This document shows positions 10,892-43,925 of a stretch of 64,000 bases of DNA, one piece after another. The translations under genes were made by a program, and so were the position numbers. The stretch is from Escherichia phage ECOP18, in sequence record NC_105825.1. One strand, written 5' to 3'. The first letter of the stretch is position 1. Every line of letters begins with the position of its first letter. A model generated the notes under the pieces. The model was not told the origin of the DNA. It did not search any database and was given only the letters and a program-made list of their open reading frames with translations.

Positions 10892-10993
10892 GCTTGTTTC
10901 CTCAGTTATTAATGAAAATGGTATCTGTGACTGAATTCGATGTCAGCAATGATAGCTGGTTGGCTACCGGTTTACTTAACTCTACACAGAATT

Positions 10994-11228: not shown

Positions 11229-11304
11229 TGGACGACCGCATGAGATTTGAACTCACATAAAAAGGATTTGCAATCCTTCGCCTAAGCCATTCAGCCAACG
11301 GTCG
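11229..11304 (-). tRNA. tRNA-Cys (GCA)
   Basis: Perfect anticodon stem AAGGA/TCCTT; loop TTGCAAA. Confidence 0.75.
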
Positions 11305-11373
11305 ATTTATCTTGTTCTGTCATGTTGCTTCTCCAGTTCAATTTATGTAATTATTATACAGAACTTTTGGAAA

Positions 11374-11661: not shown

Positions 11662-11663
11662 TT

Positions 11664-11737
11664 TGGTGCACCCTGTTCGTATCGAACGAACCTCTCAAGC
11701 TCTTCAGGCAAGCGCTAATCCATCTCAGCTAAAGGTG
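11664..11737 (-). tRNA. tRNA, anticodon unresolved (possibly Phe GAA)
   Basis: CCA, acceptor pairing and T-arm present; anticodon stem imperfect. Confidence 0.4.
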
Positions 11738-11744
11738 CAAATTT

Positions 11745-11821
11745 TGGCAAACCTACTAGGACTTGAACCTAGACCGTACGGTTTTGGAGACCGACATGCT
11801 GTCCAGTAACACTCTAGGAAT
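11745..11821 (-). tRNA. tRNA-like gene, anticodon unresolved
   Basis: CCA and perfect T-arm (CTAGG/CCTAG); acceptor has two mismatches. Confidence 0.3.
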
Positions 11822-11828
11822 GCAGGAT

Positions 11829-11905
11829 TGGCGTCCTGTGCGGGGATCGAACCCACAAATCCTACCTTGAAAGGGTAGTGACTTTACCAGTTTGTCTAAC
11901 AGGAC
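11829..11905 (-). tRNA. tRNA-Glu (TTC)
   Basis: Perfect acceptor and anticodon stems; loop CTTTCAA. Confidence 0.75.
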
Positions 11906-11911
11906 TTAAAT

Positions 11912-12003
11912 TTGGTGTTGGATGATGGAGTCGAACCACCCGAGACCCTTCCGAGTCGGCAGATTTACAGTCTGCTTCGCTACCTCTACGATACTAATCC
12001 AAC
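11912..12003 (-). tRNA. tRNA-Tyr (GTA)
   Basis: Type II, 92 nt; perfect anticodon stem GCAGA/TCTGC, loop CTGTAAA. Confidence 0.75.
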
Positions 12004-12131
12004 ATATTTAAAAGTATTCAAATACTAGTTTAAACACTTTTAGATATGTTTCCAAATTAGATAACTATTATATCAAGTTTTATGGCACTGAGCAAGTCAA
12101 ATTTTAAAGAACTTGCTCAGTGCTGTATTAG

Positions 12132-12407
12132 TTAGTCGAACTTAGGAGCGACAGTTAAGGAGAATGGAAGTTCGAAAACTTCTTCGCCCTCATCACTAAC
12201 AGTAATTACACGACCTTTAAGTTCAGACATTGAAATATCAATATCAGCTTTTGCATCTGGAGCCATGCCAGCTTCAATACATTTAGCTTTAACTTCCGGC
12301 AGAAGTTCTACATCGTAGAAATAAAGCCATTCAATCTCACCTTCCCAGCCTTCCCAGGATTTACAGATTGCACTTTCAATACCAGTTGCTATAACACGAT
12401 TTTGCAT
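12132..12407 (-). CDS. hypothetical protein
   Basis: 91-aa ORF; long hairpin downstream. Confidence 0.5.
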   Translation of the reverse strand: MQNRVIATGIESAICKSWEGWEGEIEWLYFYDVELLPEVKAKCIEAGMAPDAKADIDISMSELKGRVITVSDEGEEVFELPFSLTVAPKFD

Positions 12408-12497
12408 TCGTTAACTCCTTCATCAATTTATATAACTATTATACCAGAAATTTAAAGCAAAAGGCAAGTACATTTTTAAAAATTCTGTTTGGAGGAG

Positions 12498-12704
12498 CTA
12501 AACTCCAGATTCTTCAGCTAAGTCTAGGCTAATAAGAGATATAGCCATAATTGCTGCTCCGTGTTCTCTTTCTCCTGTCTCTTTAGCTAGGGTTATAATA
12601 TCAAGAAATTGCTTATGAAAGTCTGCAACCTCTTGAGTCATACCTGCCTCAGCAATCATGCCTTTAAGCATGAAACGTTGTGCGGTAATTTCGGGATTAG
12701 CCAT
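12498..12704 (-). CDS. hypothetical protein
   Basis: 68-aa ORF. Confidence 0.45.
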   Translation of the reverse strand: MANPEITAQRFMLKGMIAEAGMTQEVADFHKQFLDIITLAKETGEREHGAAIMAISLISLDLAEESGV

Positions 12705-12864
12705 GTTGTTTCTCCAGTTTCATGTTTAATAGTCTACAAATAAAATCAATGTCTTCATCTGTGCCTAGATCTCTATCTTCAAGAGTTGCCTTGAAGTTTT
12801 TCGTCAATTCCATGAGGATAACTTCTATAGAACGACGTGTTGGCGGAGGTGGATGTCTATACAT
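12697..12864 (-). CDS. hypothetical small protein (55 aa)
   Basis: Hand-translated ORF with AAGGAAA RBS; stop overlaps start of next gene. Confidence 0.35.
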   Translation of the reverse strand: MYRHPPPPTRRSIEVILMELTKNFKATLEDRDLGTDEDIDFICRLLNMKLEKQHG

Positions 12865-12879
12865 CTTATTTCCTTAAGT

Positions 12880-12956
12880 TGGTAGGGGTGGTGGGATTCG
12901 AACCCACAAAACCTGAATTTTAAGTCCAGTACCTATGCCAATTCGATTACACCCCC
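12880..12956 (-). tRNA. tRNA, anticodon reads TAA (Leu-decoding) with short variable arm
   Basis: Perfect T-arm; anticodon loop CTTAAAA. Confidence 0.55.
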
Positions 12957-13057
12957 ATGTAATCAGTTTATTAGTTGATACATATTATAGCCTAGTGAAA
13001 ATCCTACTACTAGTCCCACAAACCAACCAATATAATAATCTTTTAGTTTCACAGGTA

Positions 13058-13243
13058 TTATCCTCGTTCAATATCTAGGGAAACACCGCAGTTAGGATTA
13101 ATACCTGTACCGTTGCAATTTGAACAAATCCAGATATTGCAAAAAGTATCTCCTGCTTCTGCATCAGAACTTTCACCAATTCCCCTACACTCAGGGCAGG
13201 CACATTCTTCTAGCTCTTGCTTGAGTTCTTGAAACTTGGACAT
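13058..13243 (-). CDS. DnaJ-type zinc-finger mini-protein
   Basis: Two CxxCxGxG repeats (CPECRGIG, CSNCNGTG). Confidence 0.5.
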   Translation of the reverse strand: MSKFQELKQELEECACPECRGIGESSDAEAGDTFCNIWICSNCNGTGINPNCGVSLDIERG

Positions 13244-13252
13244 ATAGTCTCC

Positions 13253-13441
13253 TTAGTCAATTACTTTTGAGGCTTCAAGGGAGTCGATATAGTATACGTT
13301 TTCTACCATAATCATATAATCTGCCACTTTATCCATAGCTTGGGCCTCAGAGGTAGCTCTGGCTAACCTATATCCTTTTTTATATTCATCCGGGTATTCT
13401 CTATCTTGAATAAATACAACATAAACTATGTATAATTCCAC
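13253..13441 (-). CDS. hypothetical protein
   Basis: Track ORF 13253-13588 runs through two tRNA genes; trimmed to in-frame GTG with AGGGGA RBS. Confidence 0.35.
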   Translation of the reverse strand: MELYIVYVVFIQDREYPDEYKKGYRLARATSEAQAMDKVADYMIMVENVYYIDSLEASKVID

Positions 13442-13461
13442 TTGTAATCCCCTAATTAAGT

Positions 13462-13539
13462 TGGTGGCTCCCCGAGGATTCGAACCTACGTACCTTCCGG
13501 TTATGAGCCGGGTGCTCATACCATATGAGCTTGAGAACC
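13462..13539 (-). tRNA. tRNA-Met/Ile2 (CAT)
   Basis: Anticodon arm CCGG/CCGG with loop CTCATAA. Confidence 0.55.
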
Positions 13540-13545
13540 AGAATT

Positions 13546-13634
13546 TGGCGGAAGAAGTGGGAATCGAACCCACAAGGCTATATTTCAAACCGACAGATTA
13601 GCAATCTGCTGCAATACCGTTATGCTATTCTTCC
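13546..13634 (-). tRNA. tRNA-Ser (GCT)
   Basis: Type II, 89 nt; perfect acceptor and T stems; loop TTGCTAA. Confidence 0.75.
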
Positions 13635-13655
13635 GAATTTATAAGATATATTATA

Positions 13656-14174
13656 TTAGAAATTTAGCTTCATAGCAAGAAAATTTTTCAAGTTTTCGGT
13701 AGACATCTCATCCACATCTACGGGAGAAACAAAGCCGTTTAATTTTCTAGCAAATTTTTCACCCGCAGGATCGTTGTCTCCGACAGCTACCAATTTAAAA
13801 GGTAATAATTTCAGTTGCTTTAATAACGCTTTTCCTGGAGAAGAACCTAACATTGCCAGGGCTGGATAACCAGCGTTATGTAGCGCAACTGCCTTAAATA
13901 CAGATTCAGCGATCAATACTACTTTTTCATCTCCATTGAGAGTTTCTAGTCCCCATACACACTGGGTAGTAGAATAAGTAAAATATTTAGCTTCAAAGGG
14001 ACACTTACTATGACCTTTTGGAGCAGAAGGATTATACGTCTGATAGCCTCGCAACATCCCGGAGAAGTCATACAACGGGACTGTTAGCCATCCTTCCGGA
14101 CTTAACCAGCAATGATATTTATCTGTATCAAATCCTCTGGATAAGAGGTGCTGTGTTAGCTCATCAACATTCAT
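13656..14174 (-). CDS. Toprim-domain protein
   Basis: Conserved Glu (VVLIAES) and DxD (VAVGDNDPAG); start set to MNVDELT downstream of the promoter. Confidence 0.5.
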   Translation of the reverse strand: MNVDELTQHLLSRGFDTDKYHCWLSPEGWLTVPLYDFSGMLRGYQTYNPSAPKGHSKCPFEAKYFTYSTTQCVWGLETLNGDEKVVLIAESVFKAVALHNAGYPALAMLGSSPGKALLKQLKLLPFKLVAVGDNDPAGEKFARKLNGFVSPVDVDEMSTENLKNFLAMKLNF

Positions 14175-14349
14175 ATTTGGTTCCTCTCTCAAATTTATAG
14201 ATATATTATACAGAGAATTTAGCATTCAAGCAATCAAATTTTTTAACTTTTTAGAGGAAAATCATAGGGCACTTAAGGGTAGCAGATAAGTGGGGAGGAC
14301 CAAAATTTGTGACCCCACTAAAAATCCGGGGGCAATTTTTAAAGACCCC

Positions 14350-14378
14350 TTGACATTTTCGCTGGGGTAGTGTAAAGT
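14350..14378 (+). promoter_or_regulatory. sigma70-like promoter for rightward cassette
   Basis: Consensus -35 TTGACA, 17-nt spacer, TG then TAAAGT. Confidence 0.5.
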
Positions 14379-14440
14379 ATATGTTATGGATGAGTGATCA
14401 AAGAGACACACATTTTCTATATACTAGGAGGTGTCAAAAT

Positions 14441-15430
14441 ATGACAGAAGAAGTAGCTAAGAGTCCTGAGACCGTCGCTAGCGTTGCAGCAGAACTGCAC
14501 CGTCACGAGGAATCAGATAAGAAAAAGTGGGAGAAGGTCAGAGTCTACGAAGAAAAACATCGTGAACACGATGATGAAGAAGAAGATGACGATGATGAAC
14601 ATTGTCATAAATATGGAAAACATAAAATGCAAGAACCAGTAAACGTATTCACTAGTGGCTTCCCTGGCCTACTGGGTGGTTACCCAGCAAACGCAGGTGC
14701 TTTCGGTGGTGAAGGTATGGGACTATTCGGAGCTATCCTAATCGGTGCTCTATTAACCGGCGGATTCGGTGGTTTCGGTGGATTCGGTGGACGTGGTGTA
14801 GTTGGTGAAGGTACCGCAGTTGATGCAGTACTTCAGAACCAAGATACCGCTAGTATTCTAGCAGCTATCAACACTACTCGTACAGAGGCTAACCAGGGTA
14901 CTGGAGCTGTTTTAAGCGCAGTTAACAATGGTTTTAGCCAGACAACCCAAAACCAGAGCCGTGATACTCAGTCTGTACTAACTACGATCTACGGTACAGG
15001 TGCTAATCTGTCTAATCAGATCTGCCAGGAAACTCGCAACGTTATTCAGGGTCAGTTCGATCTTTCTCGCCAGATTGATCAATCTTTCGCAGCTAACCAG
15101 ATAGCTCGTGCACAAGATAAGTTTGATTCTGCACAGATCGCTTTCCAGCAGACTTTACAAACTAATAACCAGTTTGCCGCTGTTCAGGCTCAGATGTGTG
15201 CTAACCAGAACTCTCTGGAACGTCAGATCGCTGAATGTTGCTGTGAACTTCAGACTGCGATCGCTGGTGTAACTACTGCGCGTATCCAGGATGAGTTAGA
15301 CGCATGTCGCCTACGTGAAGCAATCGCTGCGGGTAGCGGTGCTAACGGTCAGGTAATTAATCAAATCGCTTTAAGTCTTGGTGCTATCACTCAGACTCTG
15401 GCTGGTCTGCAGGCTAAACTGCCGGCTTAA
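14441..15430 (+). CDS. low-complexity protein (acidic/His-rich N-terminus, Gly-rich hydrophobic segment, Q/N/A/T-rich C-terminal region)
   Basis: AGGAGGTG RBS before ATG at 14441; GGFGGFGGFGG segment; host-like codon usage; own promoter. Confidence 0.6.
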   Translation: MTEEVAKSPETVASVAAELHRHEESDKKKWEKVRVYEEKHREHDDEEEDDDDEHCHKYGKHKMQEPVNVFTSGFPGLLGGYPANAGAFGGEGMGLFGAILIGALLTGGFGGFGGFGGRGVVGEGTAVDAVLQNQDTASILAAINTTRTEANQGTGAVLSAVNNGFSQTTQNQSRDTQSVLTTIYGTGANLSNQICQETRNVIQGQFDLSRQIDQSFAANQIARAQDKFDSAQIAFQQTLQTNNQFAAVQAQMCANQNSLERQIAECCCELQTAIAGVTTARIQDELDACRLREAIAAGSGANGQVINQIALSLGAITQTLAGLQAKLPA

Positions 15431-15451
15431 TATTAAGGGGAGGAGCCCCTT

Positions 15452-15868
15452 ATGAGTAAATATGGTTTTGTAAATAACGGACTTAATCAAAGTATGGGCT
15501 CCCAGCAGCCCATTCCGGGTCTGGATAACCCCTACTTACAACAGTTGCAACAGCGTTTAGCAGAAGCGCAACAGATGCAGCAACAACTCCAGCAAAACCC
15601 TGGAAGTGTGAGTCCTATGCAAATGATGCAGCAAATGAGCGGGCAGTCGCAAATGCCTCAACAAATGCAGCAACAGGTGCCTCAGCAGCAAGTTCAGCAA
15701 CAAACCCAACAACCGCAGGTTTCTGCGGAAGGACAGGCAGTACTAGCCCTTTTCGAAGACTTCGCAAAGACAGAGGATGGGAAACAGCTTGTATCACTTA
15801 TGGGTAAGTTTAATAGCTTCTGCCAAAGCCAAGTTGCAAAAGCTCAAAATGGGGGTAGTAACTCCTAA
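15452..15868 (+). CDS. Gln/Met-rich low-complexity protein
   Basis: GGGGAGG RBS; runs of QQ/MQQ. Confidence 0.55.
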   Translation: MSKYGFVNNGLNQSMGSQQPIPGLDNPYLQQLQQRLAEAQQMQQQLQQNPGSVSPMQMMQQMSGQSQMPQQMQQQVPQQQVQQQTQQPQVSAEGQAVLALFEDFAKTEDGKQLVSLMGKFNSFCQSQVAKAQNGGSNS

Positions 15869-15877
15869 GGAGGAAAT

Positions 15878-16072
15878 ATGTGTTGCAGAAAATCTGTTTC
15901 GTGCTGCCCAGTGCCTGTAGCACGTTGTTGCTCTCCAGCAATGTTTACGCAAATACCGGCGTTCAATCCCTTTGCCTTTAAACCTACTCTTATCCTGCCC
16001 CCTAGAGTAGATTTTCAGTCAAGATTGGCCTCCCGTATGGGTGGTTGCTGTACACCGAGAGTATGGTTCTAA
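15878..16072 (+). CDS. Cys-doublet small protein
   Basis: AAGGAGG RBS; CC doublets; followed by terminator. Confidence 0.5.
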   Translation: MCCRKSVSCCPVPVARCCSPAMFTQIPAFNPFAFKPTLILPPRVDFQSRLASRMGGCCTPRVWF

Positions 16073-16082
16073 ACCAAAAACA

Positions 16083-16118
16083 AAAGCCCCTGCCGAAAGG
16101 TAAGGGGCTTTTTCTTTT
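16083..16118 (+). terminator. rho-independent terminator ending rightward cassette
   Basis: Hairpin AGCCCC/GGGGCT then TTTTTCTTTTG. Confidence 0.65.
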
Positions 16119-16124
16119 GCCTTA

Positions 16125-16165
16125 AATACAGAAAAGCCCGCGCTCTCGTAGGAAACGCGGGCTTG
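16125..16165 (-). terminator. rho-independent terminator after SPFH gene
   Basis: Hairpin AGCCCGCG/CGCGGGCT then T-run on minus strand. Confidence 0.6.
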
Positions 16166-16187
16166 GTTCGAAGATTACGTGTAACTA

Positions 16188-17135
16188 TTACTTGTTACGC
16201 ATATCCATGATCATTTGACCATCGTAGCCAGTACCTACCACAGTCTGAGGTACACCACCTTGATACTTCTGAGCACGGATCATTTCAACTTCCAGTTGTT
16301 TCCAACGAATCATTTCAGGAGTAATGGTACGTTGCAATGCGGCGTTAGCTTCAGCTTCTTTCTTAGCTGCGTACAGTTTAGCATCTGCGTCACGTTCATT
16401 AGCAATAGCTTGGTTGTTACGAGCTTCACGATCTGCTTCTGCTTGTTTAACTTTTTGCTGTGCTTCCTGTTCAACGCGAGCAAGTTCAGCTTTCGCAGCA
16501 TTAACTTGCTCTTCACGAACTTTGGTATTCTGTACCTGTTCCATGATTACTGGCGGCAAGGTAATATCCTGAAGGAATACCTGCTTAACTGTGTAACCAT
16601 ATGGGCGCGCATACTCTTCAACTTCCTGTTGAATTGCAGTTTGCAATTGAGCCTGAATTTTAGCATCAAATAAATCTTGTGCTTTAGGTACAGACTTACC
16701 AAACTCACGAATAGTAGACAGTAATTTTTCAGTTACATACTTGTCTAGTGCCTGATCCTGAGTACCTGCGTTAATACGGTTAATCGGTGCTTTAGAACCA
16801 TCAAACTGCAACATAACAGTCAGGTCAACAGTGGATTTAAACTTATCCTGGCTAGGAACCTGAAGTTTATCTAATTTTACAGCAATATCTTTTGTACTAA
16901 AAGTATCGAAAGATGCAAACGGGTTTACAAGATGGAAGCCCGGCAATACTGGATTAGGGTCTACTTTACCCAGGAATGTTTGGGTTTTAACCGTACCATC
17001 AGAAACAATAGTATATGAATTAAAAGCTAGGATTAAACCTGCTAAACCAACTACAGCACCAATACCCCAACGTTTAATAGTACGAATTACTTTCTGCTCA
17101 GAAGTCAGTTCTTTCATATTTTTAGTAGCAAACAT
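16188..17135 (-). CDS. SPFH/band-7 (stomatin/prohibitin/HflC-like) membrane protein
   Basis: N-terminal TM, SPFH-like core, Ala/Gln/Glu-rich coiled-coil C-terminus. Confidence 0.55.
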   Translation of the reverse strand: MFATKNMKELTSEQKVIRTIKRWGIGAVVGLAGLILAFNSYTIVSDGTVKTQTFLGKVDPNPVLPGFHLVNPFASFDTFSTKDIAVKLDKLQVPSQDKFKSTVDLTVMLQFDGSKAPINRINAGTQDQALDKYVTEKLLSTIREFGKSVPKAQDLFDAKIQAQLQTAIQQEVEEYARPYGYTVKQVFLQDITLPPVIMEQVQNTKVREEQVNAAKAELARVEQEAQQKVKQAEADREARNNQAIANERDADAKLYAAKKEAEANAALQRTITPEMIRWKQLEVEMIRAQKYQGGVPQTVVGTGYDGQMIMDMRNK

Positions 17136-17169
17136 ATATTTCCTTTGTTTTAGTTACAGTTAATAAAAT

Positions 17170-17244
17170 TGGCCGAGGTGACAGGATTCGAACCTGCATA
17201 AAGGAATTTAGAAGACTCCTGCCTCTCCCTTAGACTACACCCCG
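17170..17244 (-). tRNA. tRNA-Arg (TCT)
   Basis: Anticodon loop CTTCTAA. Confidence 0.65.
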
Positions 17245-18751: not shown

Positions 18752-19219
18752 TTAAGTTTTAGTGACAACAGGTTTATAGAATGTATGTCCCTTAATCTTA
18801 GTTGTTTTCTTAAACTTCTTTGTCCAGTAAGGTTTATCTTTACCACTATGGAAGTATAGTGCTCCATATGTAGGATCTTGTGGTAAATCAACGTAGTATA
18901 TCACTCTAGCTAAATTCTTAGCGGTTTGCCAAGCCTCATCAGTTTTATCAACTTTTGGTCTCTTAGATACCCAAGAGAACTGGTTAGACTGATATACTAC
19001 TTTACAGTAGGAATCTGGGAATTTACCGGAGTTTACACGGTTTTTAGTAACATGTGCAATCGCCGTCATTCCCTTTATGCCCTCACCACGACTTTCGAAA
19101 TAGATATTTTTAGCAATGCAATCTATTTCTTTTGCATCGTGCGATGCCTGACTACTAAAGCTGAAGGTAAGGGCAGCTACTAAAAGCAAAGCTGCCTTCA
19201 TTCTTTTTACTCCTGCCAA
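18752..19219 (-). CDS. secreted cell-wall hydrolase (SleB/Hydrolase_2-like)
   Basis: Signal peptide; family resemblance recalled from motif NIYFESRGE. Confidence 0.5.
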   Translation of the reverse strand: MAGVKRMKAALLLVAALTFSFSSQASHDAKEIDCIAKNIYFESRGEGIKGMTAIAHVTKNRVNSGKFPDSYCKVVYQSNQFSWVSKRPKVDKTDEAWQTAKNLARVIYYVDLPQDPTYGALYFHSGKDKPYWTKKFKKTTKIKGHTFYKPVVTKT

Positions 19220-19524
19220 TCATATTCAACACGATTGGGATTTTCTTTATACCCTAAGTCAAGCAAATCATTACGCATATTTTGCTTAGCTACTGGGTTC
19301 GAGGTTACTAGTACCACTTTCTTTGGTCTCTGCCCAAATTCTAAGAGTAAACGAAGAATTTGATAACCTTCCATACCATCTACAGCCAAGTCATTATCCA
19401 TATAAACGAAATGGCCGGTGGTATCAGTTTTATTCAGAAACTCTACAGCGGCTTCTGGGGTTCGAATGATAATGTCCATTCCGTGAAGATTACGCACATC
19501 ATCAATCAAAATATGAAAAGTCAT
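19207..19524 (-). CDS. hypothetical protein, possible CheY-like receiver fold
   Basis: Acidic pocket pattern (IDDV ... DLAVDGMEG ... VVLVTSNP). Confidence 0.3.
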   Translation of the reverse strand: MTFHILIDDVRNLHGMDIIIRTPEAAVEFLNKTDTTGHFVYMDNDLAVDGMEGYQILRLLLEFGQRPKKVVLVTSNPVAKQNMRNDLLDLGYKENPNRVEYDWQE

Positions 19525-20911: not shown

Positions 20912-21613
20912 TCAAATTTTCATTTTTTCGATCATAGCTGCAACACAATAGCTTTCAACTAAGGCATCAAATGCAGGATCATGCTTAACCGGATAGATCC
21001 CATAACGAATAGTGTCCATCTTCTCCATTTTAGCTATTGCCCAGCTAATACCTTCGGTCTCTAGAGCTTTATAACTGTATCCAGCTTGCATCCAGAGATT
21101 ACGAAGAGATCGAACATTACCCAAATTCCAGAATTTCCACGGAACTACCTCTTCATTAGTTCCAGAATGGAACGTGTTTGCAGAGTAGATAGTCATATCA
21201 AACTCTGGGCCATTGCCATAATACAAAGCATTTTCACCTAGAGCCAACTCCATAATATTTTGAGCCATAGAGAAGGCAGCATAGTTTGAGCCTAATTTAT
21301 TAGTGCAATGATGTTTACCATTTTGGAAGGCAATCAGTTTTGGATTACGTTCCTTCATGGCTTCCATAATGTGGATAGCAGACGGGCTATTTTTAGCTTG
21401 ATCCATCCAGAATGCTAGAGTAGATGCTGTAACTTTGGCACCAGAATTAAGCTGATCCTGCACATCCAAAGTAACAAATACTAGATCAGGGTCTTTATCA
21501 ATTCCATGCATAGCCACAAAAGCGAAAGAAGGCATTGCGATATGAGTAGTACCACAATCTCCTGGAGTTCCCAGAGATTCAATATCTAGCATACCAAATG
21601 GTTTTACTTTCAT
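20912..21613 (-). CDS. putative DEDDh 3'-5' exonuclease
   Basis: Exo I-like LDIES near N-terminus and H-x4-D (HDPAFD) near C-terminus. Confidence 0.4.
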   Translation of the reverse strand: MKVKPFGMLDIESLGTPGDCGTTHIAMPSFAFVAMHGIDKDPDLVFVTLDVQDQLNSGAKVTASTLAFWMDQAKNSPSAIHIMEAMKERNPKLIAFQNGKHHCTNKLGSNYAAFSMAQNIMELALGENALYYGNGPEFDMTIYSANTFHSGTNEEVVPWKFWNLGNVRSLRNLWMQAGYSYKALETEGISWAIAKMEKMDTIRYGIYPVKHDPAFDALVESYCVAAMIEKMKI

Positions 21614-32261: not shown

Positions 32262-32303
32262 GCTAATCAGCCGGGTTGCTAGTCGACCTGGCTTTTATTT
32301 TAT

Positions 32304-32360: not shown

Positions 32361-32642
32361 ATGAGCGAGTTGCTTCCTAAAGTAGATGTCTCCCATCTTG
32401 GAGAGCCTAGTGAAGAACGTAAGGCTCTAGATTGGTTGGGTGGATTTGATTATCGTCGTGTTGTTGCAACATGGAATGATAAGAAAGTTAAGAAGTTTCG
32501 GGTACATTATGTAGGTAAAGACAAGTGGCTCTGGATTGATTATGAAGAATCGAAGGGATCTACTAAGGCTGTGAAAATTTATCGTATGTATGGGTATTAT
32601 TATGCCCACTGTGATAAGAATGAATTTACAGTACAGAACTAA
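32361..32642 (+). CDS. hypothetical protein
   Basis: 93-aa ORF behind consensus promoter and GAGGAG RBS. Confidence 0.55.
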   Translation: MSELLPKVDVSHLGEPSEERKALDWLGGFDYRRVVATWNDKKVKKFRVHYVGKDKWLWIDYEESKGSTKAVKIYRMYGYYYAHCDKNEFTVQN

Positions 32643-32651
32643 GGAACAAGA

Positions 32652-32855
32652 ATGAAAAACGTAAAACATCTTAAATATCGCTTAATTTACAACGGACGTA
32701 TGGAAACAGAAGACCTGGCCCAGTTAGCTATTAATTCTAATGAGGTTACAGTGCGTGCGCTGGCAATTGAAAAGTTGCGTGCCTCTTATGAAAATCGTGT
32801 TATGGAATTGGAGGAGAAACTTTATGGCATTCTCGAAGCCGATGCTACCAGATAA
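32652..32855 (+). CDS. hypothetical protein
   Basis: 67-aa ORF. Confidence 0.45.
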   Translation: MKNVKHLKYRLIYNGRMETEDLAQLAINSNEVTVRALAIEKLRASYENRVMELEEKLYGILEADATR

Positions 32856-33045
32856 GGGTTTAAACGCCGCTTTGGAAAACGCATTAATGCAGCACTGGGA
32901 AACTGGTTATAAGGATGGTGTTGAATCCTGCGCTACTATGTTAGAAGTTATTGCTAATACCTTAATGGAGAAAGGCAATAAAGAATTAGCTGAGCTATTA
33001 GACAGTATTGGGCAAAACTTCAGAGAACAGGTGAAAAATGCGTAG
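32824..33045 (+). CDS. hypothetical protein
   Basis: Trimmed to ATG with GGAGA RBS; overlaps previous stop. Confidence 0.4.
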   Translation: MAFSKPMLPDKGLNAALENALMQHWETGYKDGVESCATMLEVIANTLMEKGNKELAELLDSIGQNFREQVKNA

Positions 33046-33865
33046 ATTAATTATTATTAGCGGTGCAGGTTTGAGTGTTGAAAGTGGTGTACGAGCTTTT
33101 CGTACTGATACTGCTAGTGGTAAAGCACTGTGGGATGATTATGATCTAGAAGAAGTATGTAATATTCATGCCTTTCGTGGTAATTTTTATCATAAAACCC
33201 ATATGTTTTACAACAAGCGTCGTGAAGAGCTAAAAACTGTTGAACCCAATCTTGCACATTTGCGTATTGGTGAATGGTATAAACAATATCCAGGTCAAGT
33301 AGTAAACTTGACTACCAATGTTGATGACCTTATTGAACGTGCAGGCGTTCCACATAGCGACATTCTGCACATTCACGGATATTTAAAAGAGGTTGTTGTA
33401 GCTGACAGCTACAATAGTAGTAATAAACGAATTATTGATGTTGGGTATAACTCTATTGACCCAGATGATTATAAATGGGTTAAACCTAATGTAATCTTCT
33501 TTGGTGAGCATGCTCCAGCATATACAGAAATGTACAATGTTTTTGATGGTATTACCAGTCAAGATATGATCATTGTGGTTGGTTGCTCTAACCAAGTAAT
33601 TAACTTCTACTGGGAATTATTTCCTGTTCTTAATTTGACTGCTGCCAAATTAATGGTAGTTAACTACTATGATAGTGCCCTAGCGACAGAGCCAGGCTAT
33701 CAAGGTATGACTCGTAGTGAGATGTACCAGTTGGAAGAACGCGGTGTCCCTTACTGGAGTAAAGGTGCGGTAGATGCTTTCAGTGATCCTGATTTTATTG
33801 CTCGTGTGGAAGCTCATTTAGAGGGTAGACCTTATATGCTGGGGAACAGACATGTCCATAGTTAA
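33038..33865 (+). CDS. Sir2-family (sirtuin-like) protein, no zinc ribbon
   Basis: NAD-binding motif GAGLSVESGVRAFR and HG (LHIHGY). Confidence 0.6.
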   Translation: MRRLIIISGAGLSVESGVRAFRTDTASGKALWDDYDLEEVCNIHAFRGNFYHKTHMFYNKRREELKTVEPNLAHLRIGEWYKQYPGQVVNLTTNVDDLIERAGVPHSDILHIHGYLKEVVVADSYNSSNKRIIDVGYNSIDPDDYKWVKPNVIFFGEHAPAYTEMYNVFDGITSQDMIIVVGCSNQVINFYWELFPVLNLTAAKLMVVNYYDSALATEPGYQGMTRSEMYQLEERGVPYWSKGAVDAFSDPDFIARVEAHLEGRPYMLGNRHVHS

Positions 33866-34034
33866 ATCTGTGTATACACATCCTGATGATATATTTGTAT
33901 GGGCGGACGGTAGTTGGTGCTATCGCTGTGAGCTGTGGGAAATGGACTATAAATCCGATGACTATGGTGTTATATATGTTGATACGGTTGAGTATGATAC
34001 GTTCTTAGAAAGGAACAAAGATGGAAATAAGTAA
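33852..34034 (+). CDS. hypothetical protein
   Basis: 60-aa ORF. Confidence 0.4.
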   Translation: MSIVKSVYTHPDDIFVWADGSWCYRCELWEMDYKSDDYGVIYVDTVEYDTFLERNKDGNK

Positions 34035-34527
34035 TACTCCAATTATTTTTCTAGACATTGATGGGGTGCTCAATTCGAGCATCTCCCACCATCATGCACC
34101 TGATGATGAAAAGATTTTCTTTGGAAGTGATTGGGTTTTCAAACCGCTTCTCAAGGCTTTTCAAGACTTTATTCGTTCTTCTCCAATAATGATTGTTGGG
34201 GTATCTTCATGGTTCTCTGTCAGGAATGAGATGGAGAACGTTCAGATTATGACCGGATTAGATCTTATCAATCGTTTTATTGGTACAACGGATTTTACTG
34301 GTGGTGGGCTATCTAGGGGTAATTCTGTTCTTCGCTTCGTTGAAAAGCATAAGCTCAAACATTGGTGTGTGCTGGATGATGCTGGTGCTATGATGTATCA
34401 GTACCCAACGGTTATAGTCAATGGTAGAACTGGAATAAACCTTCAAGATTTAAGAGCTGTTAGCTATATGTTAGAATTTAGTCCAGATCTTGAAATGTGT
34501 AAAGCTCTACAACAACTTAAGGTGTAA
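34021..34527 (+). CDS. HAD-superfamily hydrolase (putative nucleotidase/phosphatase)
   Basis: HAD motif I FLDIDGVLN near N-terminus. Confidence 0.5.
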   Translation: MEISNTPIIFLDIDGVLNSSISHHHAPDDEKIFFGSDWVFKPLLKAFQDFIRSSPIMIVGVSSWFSVRNEMENVQIMTGLDLINRFIGTTDFTGGGLSRGNSVLRFVEKHKLKHWCVLDDAGAMMYQYPTVIVNGRTGINLQDLRAVSYMLEFSPDLEMCKALQQLKV

Positions 34528-34529
34528 AT

Positions 34530-34955
34530 ATGTTCAATAATGTATTTTCTAAAGCTAACCCAATTTTGGTTAATTTTTGGCGTACTCTTCCAGCCAACCT
34601 GTATAATGAGGCTATTAACTCTTTGAAAATATGGTGTGAGAATAACGAAATCTCCTTTGCTTTTAAAGATGATATTGATGAGGCCCCTTGTATTGGTTTA
34701 ATTGTTCAGGTAGAGGAGGGTCTTGAAGAGATTGTGGGCTGGAAAGAGTTAGACGAAATGGGCTTAGTTTTTGCGTTAAATTATAAGCTGTTTATGCCTG
34801 CTAAGCATCGCCTTGTTGTTAACTATAAAACTAGTGAATCTCCTGGTTTTCAGGTTAATGAACGTTATGGTTGGTCTTACTCACCGGAAGAAGTAAATGA
34901 GGGGATTCAGAAACTTCGACGTTTCGGGTATATGATCCCAGGTTTAACTGCTTAA
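34530..34955 (+). CDS. hypothetical protein (paralog A)
   Basis: Shares motifs with next gene (DD.CIG, W.EL..MGL..ALN, C-terminal G.Y.PGL). Confidence 0.5.
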   Translation: MFNNVFSKANPILVNFWRTLPANLYNEAINSLKIWCENNEISFAFKDDIDEAPCIGLIVQVEEGLEEIVGWKELDEMGLVFALNYKLFMPAKHRLVVNYKTSESPGFQVNERYGWSYSPEEVNEGIQKLRRFGYMIPGLTA

Positions 34956-34964
34956 GGAGGCAGA

Positions 34965-35357
34965 ATGGAACAAGTATATTGGCGTCAGATTGATCCTAGT
35001 TTGGTGAAGCGTGCGGAGAAGCTGCTACAACGTTGGTTGGGGGTAAGACAAGCCTCCTTCACTTTTCCGGAGCAGCAAATAGACGATCCCTGTATTGGTG
35101 TTTTCCTATCAGGCTACGCTAGGGAATGGGAATTGGATTGGAATGAGTTGTCTGCTATGGGTTTAATTGTTGCCCTAAATTTCTCTTTGTTACACCCACG
35201 TGGTTTGGCTATATGTCGTGTGCCCGATGATGGTTGTTCGCCCCATCTTTTACAGGTGGAAGATGATATTTTGGAGTACACTCCAGATATTCTCAAAGAA
35301 GCTAAAGAACAATTAAACCGTGTTGGGATCTATGTTCCAGGCCTGAATGATGAATGA
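34965..35357 (+). CDS. hypothetical protein (paralog B)
   Basis: Tandem paralog of 34530-34955. Confidence 0.5.
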   Translation: MEQVYWRQIDPSLVKRAEKLLQRWLGVRQASFTFPEQQIDDPCIGVFLSGYAREWELDWNELSAMGLIVALNFSLLHPRGLAICRVPDDGCSPHLLQVEDDILEYTPDILKEAKEQLNRVGIYVPGLNDE

Positions 35358-35496
35358 TTTTTATTAGCTGAACTTTGTAATCCGGGCTATTAGTGCTCGG
35401 ATTATTACATAATCTTTTCAGTCGATTGACAGTCAAAATAAATTGTCGTTGACAATTTGGATGGATTATGTAATAATATATGTATTGGAGGTGAGG

Positions 35497-35949
35497 ATGT
35501 CATTCACACAGCAAGAACTTTTAGATAACTTCCGATATGAAGATGGTAAGTTATTTAGAACTACAGGAAGAAATGCAGGGAAAGAATGTTGTGTTTCTAC
35601 GGGTAACGGATATTACCGTATATCTCTAGGGAATAGGACTATGCTTCGGCATAGAGCAATATTTTTAATGCACCATGGATACTTACCTGATTTAGTAGAT
35701 CATGTGAACACTATAAAAGGTGATGATCGTATTGAAAATCTTAGAGAGCAGACGGTATCCGGTAATCTAAGAAATATCAAATACAAGAAAGGAATGCATG
35801 TTTACCCTTCTGGTAGTAAGAACTGGCAAGTAGTATTTACTATTAACCGTAAACGGATAGTTAAAGGAACATATGACAACTATGAGGTTGCATGTTCTAT
35901 GGCCAAGATGTTTAGAGGTCAATTATACGGTAGGGAATCAATCCAGTAA
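35497..35949 (+). CDS. HNH homing endonuclease
   Basis: HNH motifs (RHRAIFLMHHGYLP, VDHVNTIKGDDRIENL); start at MSFTQQ with GGAGGTGAGG RBS. Confidence 0.7.
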   Translation: MSFTQQELLDNFRYEDGKLFRTTGRNAGKECCVSTGNGYYRISLGNRTMLRHRAIFLMHHGYLPDLVDHVNTIKGDDRIENLREQTVSGNLRNIKYKKGMHVYPSGSKNWQVVFTINRKRIVKGTYDNYEVACSMAKMFRGQLYGRESIQ

Positions 35950-41772: not shown

Positions 41773-41988
41773 ATGAGAGGATTAATCATGGCAATGACAG
41801 TAACACTTCCCAAGATTCAAGCAAAACTTAATCTACTTTCCACAGCACGCATTAATTATCAGGATAACATAGGCACAGTAAATCAAAAGGTGTACAAAGA
41901 TGCGTTTCTGAAAGAATCTGCTGATTTGATGGATATGGTTACACAATATAATAAAGAACTCAAGATGGAAATCGCCGATGATGAATAA
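41773..41988 (+). CDS. hypothetical protein
   Basis: 71-aa ORF behind consensus promoter. Confidence 0.45.
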   Translation: MRGLIMAMTVTLPKIQAKLNLLSTARINYQDNIGTVNQKVYKDAFLKESADLMDMVTQYNKELKMEIADDE

Positions 41989-42952
41989 TGTAAAAGACTT
42001 TATTAAGCGTTGTCAAGAAGCATATTATCAAGGCATGTCTTTAATCTCTGACGAAGAATATGATCGTCTGATTAAAAGATTTCCACTAGAAGAAGAGATC
42101 GGGCCTAAGGGTGATATTCCACACCTGTATCGTATGTATTCTTTACAGAAAGTTTATTATAATCGTGGAGATAAACCTCCGTTTAACCCATTAGGTCAGG
42201 TGGAAACTGATAAGTTAGATGGTTGTGCGATTTCTCTGCTATATATTAATGGCGATTTTGTTCAAGCACTAACTCGTGGTAACGGTATTTTAGGAAATGA
42301 TGTCACAAGCAACGTAAGATTGCTGAACATCCCCAAAAAGATTTCCCAAAAAGTACCTACTCAAATCACTGGTGAAGTTCTAATTACAAAAGAAGTAGAA
42401 AATAAACGTAACTTTGCCTCTGGTGCTATTAACCTCAAAGATAGCGATGATTTCGTACAACGTATCGGGGAAGGTGGTTTAATCTTCGTTGCATATGGTA
42501 TCCAGTGTTCTGCTGAATCTGTAGGTATTACAGAAGCATATTTAAAAGATATGCTTTGGCTAGAGAATGAGAACTTCTTAACAGTTGTTAATGTGCGTTC
42601 CTTCTTTAAATGGATTCCGACGGACGGTAAAGTTGTCCGTATTAATGATAACAACAAATTCTTCCGAGAAGGCTGGACTAATAAATTCCCTCGTGGAGCA
42701 TTCGCTATTAAAGAGGATGAAGAAGGCGAGATTACAACCCTTACTAAAGTTGAATGGCAGGTAGGGGCTTCTGGTAAAGTAACTCCAGTTGGTTATTTCG
42801 AACCGGTAATTATTGATGATGCTACAATTGTTAAAGCGACTCTTAATAACGTTGATTATATTAACTCTCTTGATTTAGAGATCGGTTGCCAGATTCGAGT
42901 GATTCGTGCTGGTGGTGTAATCCCGTGCATAGTAGAGCGAGTATACGATTAA
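41978..42952 (+). CDS. lig: NAD-dependent DNA ligase, N-terminal adenylation fragment
   Basis: KxDG adenylation motif (ETDKLDGCA). Confidence 0.65.
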   Translation: MMNNVKDFIKRCQEAYYQGMSLISDEEYDRLIKRFPLEEEIGPKGDIPHLYRMYSLQKVYYNRGDKPPFNPLGQVETDKLDGCAISLLYINGDFVQALTRGNGILGNDVTSNVRLLNIPKKISQKVPTQITGEVLITKEVENKRNFASGAINLKDSDDFVQRIGEGGLIFVAYGIQCSAESVGITEAYLKDMLWLENENFLTVVNVRSFFKWIPTDGKVVRINDNNKFFREGWTNKFPRGAFAIKEDEEGEITTLTKVEWQVGASGKVTPVGYFEPVIIDDATIVKATLNNVDYINSLDLEIGCQIRVIRAGGVIPCIVERVYD

Positions 42953-43095
42953 TACATAACCCTTTGCTACCCATCTACCATATCGGAATTATAAAGTGGT
43001 TATTGACATTTTCGCCGCTTAGGTATATACTATTATCATTCAGTTGAGGGATAGAAAGTTATGGCGAGGGTAAGCAAAGTTAGTTAAAATTGTAG

Positions 43096-43124
43096 TTGCT
43101 AAATGCTTAAATACTTGCTATAAT
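43096..43124 (+). promoter_or_regulatory. sigma70-type promoter inside the split ligase locus
   Basis: TTGCTA-N17-TATAAT upstream of the second ligase ORF. Confidence 0.55.
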
Positions 43125-43151
43125 ATTTATATAAATTGATAAGGAAGAAAT

Positions 43152-43925
43152 TTGATGAAAATCGAAATTCCAACACAATGTCCCTCTTGTGGTTCTAAGC
43201 TAGATCTTGTCAACGGACAATTATTCTGTCGGAATAAGTCCAACTGTCCAGCGCAATCAAGTAAGTTAATTGAGAACTTCTGTTCAAAAATGAAGTTAAA
43301 GGGCTTTGGCCCGAAAACTATTGAGAAGCTGGAGCTGACGAAGATTTCAGAACTCTTTTACCTAACCGAAGAAGATTTGGTTAGAGCCGTGGGTAGTAAG
43401 GTTGCCGCTAAGTTAATTAGCGAATTAAATACTAAAGTTCGCGGAGACATTGACTTTGGTTCAGTTCTCGGTTCTTTAGGAATCCCTCTAATTGGAGAGG
43501 TTGCAGCAAAGAAATTATCCCAAAATTGCACTAGCTTCCATGATGTGAAGGCTGACGGCAAGGCTGGAGAAAATTATAAAGCCTGGCTAAATTCCCCACA
43601 AGGCAAGGATGTTATCGAATTACCGTGGAAATTCTCAACTGGTGCTAAAGCTAAAACCGTCGTTACTGATGATTTAGTTGCCCAGCCAAATGGAATCGCG
43701 GTATGTATTACCGGATCTTTGCAAGATTTTGCAAATCGAACGGATGCAACAAACTACTTAGAAGGTCTAGGATACACGGTTAAGAAATCCGTTACCAAAG
43801 ACGTCAAATACCTAATCTGTGAGGATGAATCAAAACGTTCTTCCTCATCTTATAAGAAAGCCGAAACGAATGGGATAGAAATCCTGTCGATTAAAGAACT
43901 ATTGGAGAAAAATAATAATGTCTAA
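43152..43925 (+). CDS. lig: NAD-dependent DNA ligase, C-terminal fragment
   Basis: LigA-type zinc finger (CPSCGSKL ... CRNKSNC) with helical and BRCT-like tail; own promoter and RBS. Confidence 0.65.
   Translation: MMKIEIPTQCPSCGSKLDLVNGQLFCRNKSNCPAQSSKLIENFCSKMKLKGFGPKTIEKLELTKISELFYLTEEDLVRAVGSKVAAKLISELNTKVRGDIDFGSVLGSLGIPLIGEVAAKKLSQNCTSFHDVKADGKAGENYKAWLNSPQGKDVIELPWKFSTGAKAKTVVTDDLVAQPNGIAVCITGSLQDFANRTDATNYLEGLGYTVKKSVTKDVKYLICEDESKRSSSSYKKAETNGIEILSIKELLEKNNNV

What the first reader, a model, noticed from the sequence alone, without database searches (positions are those of the whole stretch)
33038..33865. Sir2-family protein lacking the zinc ribbon
The 275-aa product carries the sirtuin NAD-binding signature GAGLSVESGVRAFR and an HG motif, but has no CxxC pairs. 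Zinc-less Sir2 domains are typically NAD-consuming enzymes (NADase or ADP-ribosyltransferase) in defence systems; a phage copy suggests NAD manipulation or counter-defence.
Basis: partly seen in the sequence, partly recalled or inferred. Interest (0 to 1): 0.65.

Follow-up and report, generated by a model that had tools for sequence, protein, structure and literature searches.

The report
Zinc-free sirtuin of T5-like phages
This is the long-annotated Sir2-like gene of T5-type phages (ortholog of T5.102): an apparently active, zinc-free relative of the bacterial CobB deacylase rather than a defence-type NAD destroyer, whose real substrate has never been tested but whose gene neighbours point to RNA-end repair.

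Summary
Window 33038-33865 (+) encodes a 275-aa protein with the motif GAGLSVESGVRAFR, a catalytic HG, only two cysteines and no CxxC.

The window is a T5-like phage. The gene is the ortholog of T5.102 and is annotated as Sir2 in hundreds of phage genomes. Zinc-free phage sirtuins were described in 2016, and an RNA-repair role was predicted in 2022.

The context supports that prediction:
- Here the gene shares a tight early operon with a HAD_SAK_2 RNA-repair-type phosphatase, and a cREC gene lies 13.5 kb away.
- Orthologs in rV5-like, phi92-like and a megaphage sit beside RNA ligase, kinase and cREC genes.

No experiment exists. The finding is already known and of modest interest.

The parts
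33038..33865 (+). Sir2-family (sirtuin) gene, 275 aa; ortholog of phage T5 gene T5.102
   Evidence: ORF. Pfam PF02146 7e-25. PHROG 2162 2e-121. 94-98% identity to genes annotated Sir2 in T5-like phages. AF2 model pLDDT 89.8.
33062..33103 (+). NAD-binding motif and cofactor-binding loop, GAGLSVESGVRAFR (residues 9-22)
   Evidence: Read from the sequence. G9 A10 G11 S13 S16 G17 F21 R22 are invariant in 65 homologs and are shared with zinc-containing sirtuins.
33209..33220 (+). Y58-N-K-R61, the class III sirtuin Y-x-x-R acyl-pocket pair (aligns with the FYNARR segment of CobB)
   Evidence: HMMER alignment to CobB. Y58, R61 and R62 are invariant. Numbering of the CobB and SIRT5 equivalents (Y92/R95, Y102/R105) is from my own knowledge.
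33311..33325 (+). TTNVD motif (residues 92-96). N94 and D96 are conserved; the usual Gln of TQN(I/V)D is replaced by Thr93.
   Evidence: T93 N94 V95 D96 invariant. T93 goes together with loss of the zinc cysteines among 151 representatives (30/8/9/80, Fisher p=4e-14, not corrected for phylogeny).
33374..33379 (+). Catalytic His113-Gly114
   Evidence: Aligned to the CobB catalytic HG. Invariant in the family and in 150 of 151 representatives.
33380..33493 (+). Zinc-module equivalent (residues 115-152) with no cysteine
   Evidence: No Cys. Three predicted strands, pLDDT 89-96. Same length as the CobB module, which carries four Cys.
33497..33508 (+). FFGE loop (residues 154-157), the substrate-backbone-binding loop of sirtuins
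   Evidence: F154, F155 and E157 invariant; aligned with the WFGE of CobB.
32269..32293 (+). Terminator-like hairpin after nrdD; marks the start of the Sir2 transcription unit
   Evidence: T5 has an annotated terminator and promoter at the same relative place.
32361..33045 (+). Three small upstream ORFs of unknown function (PHROGs 7953, 5236, 5827). The last one overlaps the Sir2 start codon by 8 nt.
   Evidence: Conserved upstream of Sir2 in T5-like loci.
33852..34034 (+). 60-aa ORF (PHROG 5116) that overlaps both the Sir2 stop and the HAD start
   Evidence: Found directly after Sir2 in 28 of 60 loci, including distant ones such as L041, L042, L062 and L063.
34021..34527 (+). HAD_SAK_2 phosphatase ('HAD domain in Swiss Army Knife RNA repair proteins'), motif I DIDGV; ortholog of T5.105
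   Evidence: Pfam PF18143 4e-21. Found within 0.5 kb downstream of Sir2 in all T5-like loci.
34530..35357 (+). Two paralogous DUF7415 genes (141 and 130 aa); orthologs of T5.106 and T5.107
   Evidence: Pfam PF24187 1.6e-35 and 5.8e-31. Linked to Sir2 even where the HAD gene is absent (L060, L062, L063). Confident model but no structural match.
19207..19524 (-). cREC_REC (cyclic-phosphate processing receiver domain) gene, 13.5 kb from Sir2
   Evidence: Pfam PF20274 3.8e-15. The same domain is encoded next to Sir2 in Vequintavirinae.

Best explanation
The gene encodes the T5.102-type phage sirtuin. It is a stand-alone, catalytically intact enzyme of a largely phage-borne, zinc-free offshoot of the class III (CobB/SIRT5-like) sirtuins.

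Shown here:
- It has the canonical sirtuin fold, NAD pocket, catalytic His/Asn/Asp and Y-x-x-R pair.
- The zinc module is retained without its cysteines.
- It lies in a tightly packed early operon with a HAD_SAK_2 phosphatase and two DUF7415 genes.
- The phage also encodes a cREC protein.
- Orthologs elsewhere lie inside operons with RNA ligase, cREC and a polynucleotide-kinase-like gene.

Inferred:
- The enzyme binds NAD+, expels nicotinamide and lets an oxygen nucleophile of its substrate attack C1' of the ribose. The His-activated 2'-OH then resolves the adduct. This is the general sirtuin chemistry.
- My preferred biological role is RNA-end healing after attack by host RNases that leave 2',3'-cyclic phosphates. 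cREC would open the cyclic phosphate, the sirtuin would remove a 2'-phosphate by transfer to NAD+ (analogous to Tpt1/KptA), and the HAD phosphatase would clear a terminal phosphate or the ADP-ribose-phosphate by-product.
- I put about 0.45 on some role linked to RNA repair and about 0.3 on the specific Tpt1-like chemistry. Classical protein-lysine deacylation is a nearly equal rival.
For: Family and active site. Confident model and fold matches.

Operon structure: overlapping start and stop codons; terminator upstream; T5 annotation with promoter, T5.100-T5.107, then terminator.

Neighbours in the window: HAD_SAK_2 4e-21; cREC_REC 3.8e-15.

Orthologs:
- The 57-64% identical proteins in Murica (Vequintavirus) and EspYZU12 (Seunavirus) sit in the order RNA_lig_T4_1, cREC_REC, (AAA_33 kinase), Sir2, with a metallophosphoesterase nearby.
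- Of 60 loci, 31 carry HAD_SAK_2 (all but one within 0.5 kb of Sir2) and 13 carry RNA ligase and/or the kinase within 2.3 kb.
- A 35% identical homolog in a 608-kb megaphage has an RNA ligase two genes upstream.

Co-occurrence and loss:
- T5-type cREC homologs occur in T5-likes, My1 and 50 Vibrio phage records. Sir2 also matches 50 Vibrio phage records.
- DT57C lost Sir2 and HAD together in one deletion scar.

The same prediction was made independently from gene neighbourhoods (PMC9503650, section 3.7.3).
Against: - No sirtuin has been shown to act on RNA. The idea rests on gene neighbourhood only.
- HAD_SAK_2 and cREC are themselves only computationally assigned to RNA repair.
- T5-like genomes contain no RNA ligase or polynucleotide kinase. 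None was found in the window or in the complete genome of the closest relative, so the pathway would be incomplete without host enzymes.
- The residues that align with the engineered CobB pocket positions A76, Y92, I131, V162 and V187 are C41, Y58, V95, V152 and V187. They are invariant and CobB-like, and the peptide-binding FGE loop is kept. This fits an acyl-lysine substrate.
- The protein and its zinc-free relatives are acidic (pI 5.5; median 5.2), which is unusual for an RNA-binding enzyme.
- About a quarter of the loci show no RNA-repair neighbour. These include KVP40-like phages, the L044-L057 group, L066 (next to Nampt) and L067.
- DT57C keeps cREC without Sir2 or HAD.
Confidence: 0.4

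Rival explanations
1. It is a CobB-like NAD+-dependent protein lysine deacylase (deacetylase or desuccinylase). It would be expressed early to strip acyl groups from host or phage proteins, for example to reactivate acetyl-phosphate- or GNAT-acetylated enzymes. The zinc is simply replaced by other stabilising contacts.
For: - H113, N94, D96, the FFGE loop and the class III Y58-x-x-R61 pair are invariant. The residues at CobB acyl-pocket positions are CobB-like.
- The same reading was proposed for the zinc-free KVP40-like phage sirtuin (PMC5107563).
Against: - It fails every NCBIfam CobB-type cut-off by a wide margin (90-100 bits against 243-320).
- Family-specific changes lie at functional sites: Gln to Thr93 in TQNxD, and the Pro of the V-Y-P segment replaced by invariant F190.
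- The host already has CobB.
- The hypothesis does not explain the recurrent embedding in RNA ligase/cREC/kinase operons or the HAD_SAK_2 linkage.
Confidence: 0.33
2. One reading: an NAD+-consuming enzyme (NADase, or ADP-ribosyltransferase acting on proteins or small molecules) used to manipulate host NAD or to counter NAD- or ADPR-based defence signalling.
For: - It is zinc-free, like defence SIR2 domains.
- Thr replaces the Gln that contacts the nicotinamide ribose (the role of the Gln is from my own knowledge).
- Some distant homologs lie next to NAD-metabolism genes, for example Nampt directly upstream in L066.
- cREC, HAD and Nudix-type partners could equally process ADP-ribose derivatives (PMC9503650).
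Against: - No match to any PADLOC defence SIR2 model.
- Family PF02146 matched; PF13289 (the defence-type SIR2_2 family) did not appear in the scan at E<=1.
- No macro domain, sensor or partner domain in the operon.
- The phage uses an NAD-dependent DNA ligase, and a relative imports and salvages NAD precursors. Bulk NAD hydrolysis would be self-harming.
Confidence: 0.1
3. It is a dispensable, decaying or inactive relic with no function in infection.
For: DT57C carries only a deletion remnant that fuses Sir2 residues about 171-212 to the HAD C-terminus, yet it is a viable phage.
Against: - Intact full-length copies occur in 224 of 232 closely related records and in about 860 phage records overall.
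- 46 columns are invariant, including every catalytic residue, across homologs down to 54% identity.
- The structural model is confident.
- This is the pattern of purifying selection on an active enzyme that is needed only under some conditions.
Confidence: 0.03

Closest known systems
Phage T5 gene T5.102 (YP_006930.1, 'Sir2 (NAD-dependent deacetylase)') and its orthologs in Demerecviridae
   Same: Same gene: about 94-98% protein identity and the same position between nrdD and the replication-origin-binding gene. It has the same operon partners (T5.103-T5.107) and the same two cysteines.
   Different: Only strain-level differences. The window lacks the homing endonuclease that mar003J3 carries upstream. 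It also lacks T5.103, the extra small ORF that T5 has between Sir2 and the 60-aa ORF (T5.104 equivalent).
Phage 'RNA-repair' sirtuin clade predicted by Iyer, Burroughs, Anantharaman and Aravind 2022 (PMC9503650), type 3 neighbourhood (phage SP15)
   Same: Sirtuin next to a Swiss-army-knife-type HAD phosphatase in a T5-like phage. Orthologs lie in RNA ligase/cREC/kinase/MazG operons of rV5-like phages. I re-derived both contexts here.
   Different: Nothing structural. This work adds four points: the T5-like genome also has an unlinked cREC gene; T5-likes lack a ligase and kinase; DUF7415 is an even more constant partner; and zinc loss travels with the Gln-to-Thr change.
E. coli CobB and human SIRT5 (class III sirtuin deacylases)
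   Same: Rossmann plus small-domain fold, GAGxS, cofactor-loop FR, N-x-D, catalytic HG, FGE loop, and the Y-x-x-R pair that binds acidic acyl groups.
   Different: About 25% identity and far below the NCBIfam CobB cut-offs. It has no zinc ligands, Thr instead of Gln in TQNxD, Phe instead of the conserved Pro after GxS-x-x-V, and a roughly 60-residue C-terminal extension. It is phage-encoded.
Zinc-free Sir2/CobB of KVP40-like Vibrio phages (phiSt2, phiGrn1; Skliros et al. 2016, PMC5107563)
   Same: A distant homolog (about 35% identity) that also lacks the zinc ligands; salt bridges were proposed as a replacement. That paper notes conservation in T5.
   Different: The KVP40-like protein keeps the Pro (E-I-N-P) where T5-like has V-I-N-F. 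It has F-N-E instead of F-G-E. It has no HAD or DUF7415 neighbour.
Tpt1/KptA RNA 2'-phosphotransferase
   Same: A proposed functional analogy only. Both use NAD+, involve attack on the nicotinamide-ribose C1' followed by a step through the ribose 2'-OH, and occur in RNA ligase/kinase repair contexts.
   Different: Unrelated fold and sequence (Tpt1 is an ART-superfamily enzyme). No biochemical evidence exists for the sirtuin.
Defence-associated SIR2 NADases (ThsA, DSR1/2, SIR2-HerA, SIR2-APAZ/pAgo, Avs5, KomC)
   Same: Sir2-type Rossmann core, no zinc ribbon, NAD+ as substrate.

Membership tests
Sirtuin / Sir2 family (Pfam PF02146) | Profile match above the curated threshold | tested here: met
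   88.4 bits against a cut-off of 24, E=7e-25, covering profile positions 1-178 of 180.
Sirtuin / Sir2 family (Pfam PF02146) | Rossmann domain plus small domain fold | tested here: met
   [not shown]
Sirtuin / Sir2 family (Pfam PF02146) | NAD-binding GAGxS, cofactor-loop F-R, N-x-D and catalytic His | tested here: met
   G9 A10 G11 S13 F21 R22 N94 D96 H113 are all invariant in 65 homologs and aligned to CobB. The Gln before N-x-D is Thr93.
Sirtuin / Sir2 family (Pfam PF02146) | Cys4 zinc site in the small domain | tested here: not met
   No Cys in residues 115-152 and only C41 and C183 in the whole protein. The same holds in 120 homologs and in 43 of 151 representatives.
Sirtuin / Sir2 family (Pfam PF02146) | NAD+-dependent deacylase activity | not testable with these tools
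   Needs an enzyme assay. No published assay was found.
Class III sirtuins / CobB orthologs | Y-x-x-R pair in the acyl pocket | tested here: met
   The FYNKRR segment aligns with FYNARR of CobB. Y58 and R61 are invariant.
Class III sirtuins / CobB orthologs | NCBIfam CobB-type model scores above the curated cut-off | tested here: not met
   The two best models score 100 bits (NF001753, cut-off 243) and 90 bits (NF040867 prot_deacyl_CobB, cut-off 320). All seven models fall below their cut-offs.
Defence-associated SIR2 NADases (ThsA, DSR, SIR2-HerA, pAgo-SIR2, Avs5, KomC) | Match to defence SIR2 profiles | tested here: not met
   PADLOC returned only a spurious 0.061 hit to a type I restriction enzyme model. 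Pfam reports only PF02146.
Defence-associated SIR2 NADases (ThsA, DSR, SIR2-HerA, pAgo-SIR2, Avs5, KomC) | Fused or adjacent sensor or partner (SLOG, HerA, Argonaute, STAND, TIR) | tested here: not met
   It is a 275-aa single-domain protein. Its neighbours are small unknown ORFs, HAD_SAK_2, DUF7415 and an HNH endonuclease.
Defence-associated SIR2 NADases (ThsA, DSR, SIR2-HerA, pAgo-SIR2, Avs5, KomC) | Closest structural relatives are defence SIR2 domains | tested here: not met
   [not shown]
SirTM (class M ADP-ribosylating sirtuins) | Operon or fusion with a macro domain | tested here: not met
   [not shown]
Phage RNA-repair-associated sirtuin clade (Iyer et al. 2022) | Conserved neighbourhood with RNA-end-processing genes (HAD SAK; or RNA ligase, cREC and kinase) | tested here: met
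   HAD_SAK_2 lies 156 nt downstream. Orthologs lie in RNA_lig_T4_1/cREC/AAA_33 operons.
Phage RNA-repair-associated sirtuin clade (Iyer et al. 2022) | Acts on RNA 2'-phosphate or RNA ends | not testable with these tools
   This is a prediction only (PMC9503650). No experiment was found.

The most novel reading that the evidence does not exclude
The phage sirtuin clade is the first sirtuin lineage whose substrate is RNA rather than protein. In the main version it is a non-homologous replacement for Tpt1/KptA: it uses NAD+ to remove a 2'-phosphate left after cREC opens a 2',3'-cyclic phosphate, as part of a phage counter-measure to RNA-cleaving host defences. In a more speculative variant it deacylates N-acetyl-aminoacyl-tRNA made by GNAT toxins. 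The co-occurring derived features (zinc loss, Gln to Thr93, Pro to Phe190) would then mark the change of substrate. The 2'-phosphate version has already been proposed in print, so only experimental proof would be new.
Probability: 0.3. Interest if true: 0.7.

Novelty: already known. Interest (0 to 1): 0.3.

Why it matters
The gene is common: about 1,000 of 50,697 phage records carry a homolog, including the T5-, rV5-, phi92- and KVP40-like groups used in phage therapy and as models. No one has shown what it does.

If it repairs RNA, it would extend sirtuin chemistry to nucleic acids. It would also define a new phage answer to tRNA- or mRNA-cleaving immunity. If it is a deacylase, it would be a direct case of a virus rewriting the host acyl-lysine proteome.

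Either way, it shows that a sirtuin can do without its structural zinc. As a scan finding, though, it adds nothing that annotation and two published analyses had not already noted.

Tried and rejected
- PADLOC scan for defence SIR2 models: nothing.
- RNA ligase, polynucleotide kinase, MazG-like or metallophosphoesterase homologs in the window and in the complete genome of the closest relative (mar003J3): none, only the cREC gene.
- HAD protein against PDB sequences: no hit even at E<=10.
- Search for residues that sharply separate zinc-free from zinc-containing relatives (at least 70% against at most 25%): none passed. Thr93 was just under the threshold.
- Charge as a hint of RNA binding: the protein is acidic, which argues weakly against it.
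- Literature searches for any experiment on phage sirtuins, T5 Sir2, or cREC/HAD RNA repair: only computational papers. The CRISPRi-ART and HIDEN-SEQ phage fitness papers do not mention it in their main text.
- Recent capture of host cobB: rejected, because identity to CobB is only about 25% and the family is broadly phage-borne.

Full report
**Observation.** The ORF at 33038-33865 (+) is real: ATG start, 275 aa, with an AGGTG ribosome-binding site just upstream. Residues 9-22 read GAGLSVESGVRAFR, and H113-G114 is the HG. The only cysteines are C41 and C183, so there is no CxxC. The family assignment is far beyond chance:
- Pfam SIR2 PF02146, E=7e-25, covering the whole profile.
- PHROG 2162 'Sir2', 2e-121.
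- E. coli CobB, 1.4e-17, followed by Sir2Af1/2 and SIRT5.

**Where it comes from.** The window is a T5-like phage of the Demerecviridae. The closest record is the Epseptimavirus vB_Eco_mar003J3 at 97.9% identity, and the window is syntenic with that genome over most of its length.
- The gene is the ortholog of T5.102, which is annotated as Sir2 in phage T5.
- 232 phage records carry a near-identical copy, 224 of them full length.
- 999 of 50,697 phage records carry a protein homolog. These include T5-like, rV5-like, phi92-like and KVP40-like phages and some jumbo phages.
- All 120 listed homologs from the metagenome-scale protein search carry PF02146. Many lie on contigs of 90-155 kb, which are phage-sized.

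**What kind of Sir2.** An AlphaFold2 model built on 65 homologs is confident (pLDDT 89.8, pTM 0.89).
- Foldseek against the PDB returns CobB, Sir2Af1, SIRT5 and Sir2Tm.
- No PADLOC defence model matches.
- NCBIfam CobB-type models match, but far below their cut-offs. The protein is therefore a separate family and not a CobB ortholog.
- Invariant residues across 65 homologs (down to 54% identity) are G9 A10 G11 S13, F21 R22, Y58 R61 R62, T93 N94 V95 D96, H113 G114, K149, F154 F155 E157, G182 S184 and N209.
- These include every NAD-binding and catalytic position, the FGE substrate loop, and the Y-x-x-R pair that marks class III sirtuins (alignment).

It is a Sir2 enzyme that looks active.

**The zinc question.** The stretch between HG and FGE has the same length as in CobB, 45 against 46 residues. 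It is predicted as three strands with pLDDT around 90. The module is kept; only its four cysteines are gone.

A search of 1.84 billion representative proteins with the family profile gave 7,620 hits at E<=1e-3 and 166 at E<=1e-30.
- Among the top 150 plus the query, 43 have no cysteine in the module.
- These zinc-free proteins tend to have Thr instead of the usual Gln in the TQN(I/V)D motif. The counts are Thr/zinc-free 30, Thr/Cys>=3 8, Gln/zinc-free 9 and Gln/Cys>=3 80.
- Fisher p is 4e-14, but this is not corrected for shared ancestry.

The zinc-free state is not a new observation. It was described in 2016 for the KVP40-like Vibrio phage sirtuin, with salt bridges proposed as a substitute and T5 named as another carrier (PMC5107563). 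I confirmed that the KVP40-like homolog (about 35% identity) also lacks CxxC.

**Context in the window.** A terminator-like hairpin follows nrdD at 32269-32293; T5 has an annotated terminator and promoter at the same place. A packed set of same-strand genes follows, several with overlapping stop and start codons:
- three small unknown ORFs;
- Sir2;
- a 60-aa ORF;
- a 168-aa HAD_SAK_2 protein (PF18143, 'HAD domain in Swiss Army Knife RNA repair proteins', 4e-21, motif DIDGV);
- two DUF7415 paralogs.

In T5 this is T5.100-T5.107, ending in an annotated terminator. A cREC_REC ('cyclic-phosphate processing receiver') gene lies at 19207-19524 on the minus strand (3.8e-15).

The phage has 21 tRNA genes in the window. 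By synteny it also has a split NAD-dependent DNA ligase at 41978-43925. It has no detectable RNA ligase or polynucleotide kinase, and neither does the complete genome of its closest relative.

**Context elsewhere.**
- In Vequintavirus Murica and Seunavirus EspYZU12, the 57-64% identical ortholog sits in the order RNA_lig_T4_1, cREC_REC, (AAA_33 kinase), Sir2. A MazG-like gene follows in Murica, and a metallophosphoesterase lies nearby.
- I fetched 59 IMG/VR loci and scanned their ORFs with profiles built from these partners.
- All 27 T5-like loci and the window have Sir2, HAD_SAK_2 and two DUF7415 genes. My1 (L040) has Sir2, HAD and DUF7415.
- L060, L062 and L063 have DUF7415 but no HAD.
- 13 loci from at least two subfamilies have RNA ligase and/or the kinase within 2.3 kb of Sir2; most of them also carry the metallophosphoesterase, MazG-like and cREC genes nearby.
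- About 13 loci show none of these partners.
- Spot checks of those remaining loci found Nampt directly upstream (L066), a deoxyribosyltransferase-like gene downstream (L067) and DUF7275 nearby. In a 608-kb megaphage (L068), an RNA ligase lies two genes upstream of a 35% identical sirtuin.
- T5-type cREC homologs occur in 492 phage records. These include T5, My1 and 50 Vibrio phage records, the same number of Vibrio records that carry the sirtuin.
- DT57C carries a scar that fuses Sir2 residues about 171-212 to the HAD C-terminus. The pair was lost together and is dispensable in the laboratory. DT57C keeps cREC.

**Interpretation.** These neighbourhoods were described in 2022 by Iyer and colleagues. 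They proposed that most viral sirtuins form a distinct clade that acts like KptA/Tpt1 and removes RNA 2'-phosphates. Their third neighbourhood type is exactly the T5-like sirtuin-plus-HAD pair (PMC9503650).

The chemistry is plausible from established knowledge. In both enzymes a substrate oxygen attacks C1' of the nicotinamide ribose, and the ribose 2'-OH then resolves the adduct. The invariant Tyr/Arg pair that binds a carboxylate in SIRT5 could in principle bind a phosphate.

There are arguments against it:
- The acyl-lysine pocket and FGE loop are strictly conserved.
- The protein is acidic.
- T5-likes lack a ligase and kinase.
- There is no biochemical precedent.

My estimates:
- About 0.4 on an RNA-repair-linked role, of which about 0.3 is the specific Tpt1-like reaction.
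- About 0.33 on ordinary protein deacylation.
That idea is weakened by family and fold placement, by the absence of partner domains, and by the phage's own dependence on NAD+.

**Literature.** I found no experimental study of any phage sirtuin.

**Verdict.** It is wrong in equating the protein with defence-type NADases. The gene, its zinc-free state and its likely RNA-repair link are all already in annotation or print, so novelty is 'already known'. Interest is modest (0.3). It rests on an open and easily testable biochemical question rather than on anything new in this window.

Noticed in passing
window 19207-19524 (-): A 105-aa cREC_REC (cyclic-phosphate processing receiver domain) gene, annotated 'hypothetical' in most T5-like records. 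T5-type homologs occur in 492 phage records, including 50 KVP40-like Vibrio phage records.
   Followed up: partly
[not shown]
   Followed up: partly
L003 9589-10095 (T5.105); window 34021-34527: Annotation error in public records. The HAD_SAK_2 gene is labelled 'Sir2 (NAD-dependent deacetylase)' in RefSeq T5 and other phages. The likely cause is PHROG 18062, which is named Sir2 but matches the HAD C-terminus (1.8e-56). That PHROG probably derives from the DT57C Sir2-HAD fusion remnant.
   Followed up: yes
L002 3980-4252 (phage DT57C): A natural deletion scar. The 90-aa 'sir2' ORF joins Sir2 residues about 171-212 to the last 36 or so residues of the HAD protein, and the Sir2 N-terminal catalytic half is also gone. 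This shows that the pair is dispensable for laboratory growth.
   Followed up: yes
window 13656-15430, compared with L007 3817-5551: The closest relative, mar003J3, carries PnuC (NMN or nicotinamide riboside transporter) and a NadR-like adenylyltransferase. The window has no homolog of either. In the corresponding stretch it has a Toprim-domain ORF (13656-14225, minus strand) and a 349-aa ORF with no Pfam match (14381-15430, plus strand).
   Followed up: partly
window 20912-21613 (-): A 233-aa ORF with an Rv2179c-like 3'-5' exoribonuclease domain (5e-08). It is labelled 'putative metallopeptidase' in mar003J3. It is another RNA-processing candidate in the same early region.
   Followed up: no
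window 5895-17244 (-): A cluster of 21 tRNA genes, typical of T5-like phages. It is relevant if the Sir2/HAD/cREC set protects or repairs tRNAs.
   Followed up: no
window 35443-35949 (+); L001 4594-5280: Mobile HNH homing endonucleases flank the operon and differ between relatives. The window has one after the DUF7415 genes. mar003J3 has an extra Hef-like one between nrdD and the operon that the window lacks.
   Followed up: no
phage records OR847503.1 and OR848287.1 ('Listeria phage LM 4-11-1' and 'LM 4-14-1'): Short records labelled as Listeria phages are 95-98% identical to this enterobacterial T5-like Sir2/HAD region. They are probably mislabelled or contaminant fragments.
   Followed up: no
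L066 8057-9493; L068 7582-9723; L067 10713-11198; L050 6747-7676 and L006 3099-3860: Distant phage sirtuins have other recurring neighbours. Nampt lies directly upstream in L066. RNA ligase plus an arginase-family gene lie upstream in a 608-kb megaphage (L068). A nucleoside 2-deoxyribosyltransferase-like gene lies downstream in L067. A DUF7275/DUF7277 protein lies nearby both in the L050 locus and in KVP40-like phages.
   Followed up: partly
window 33314-33316 (Thr93) and 33605-33607 (Phe190): There are family-specific substitutions at normally conserved sirtuin positions: Gln to Thr in TQNxD, and Pro to Phe in the segment after GxS-x-x-V. The Thr change travels with loss of the zinc cysteines across 151 representatives. 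No functional explanation is known.
   Followed up: partly
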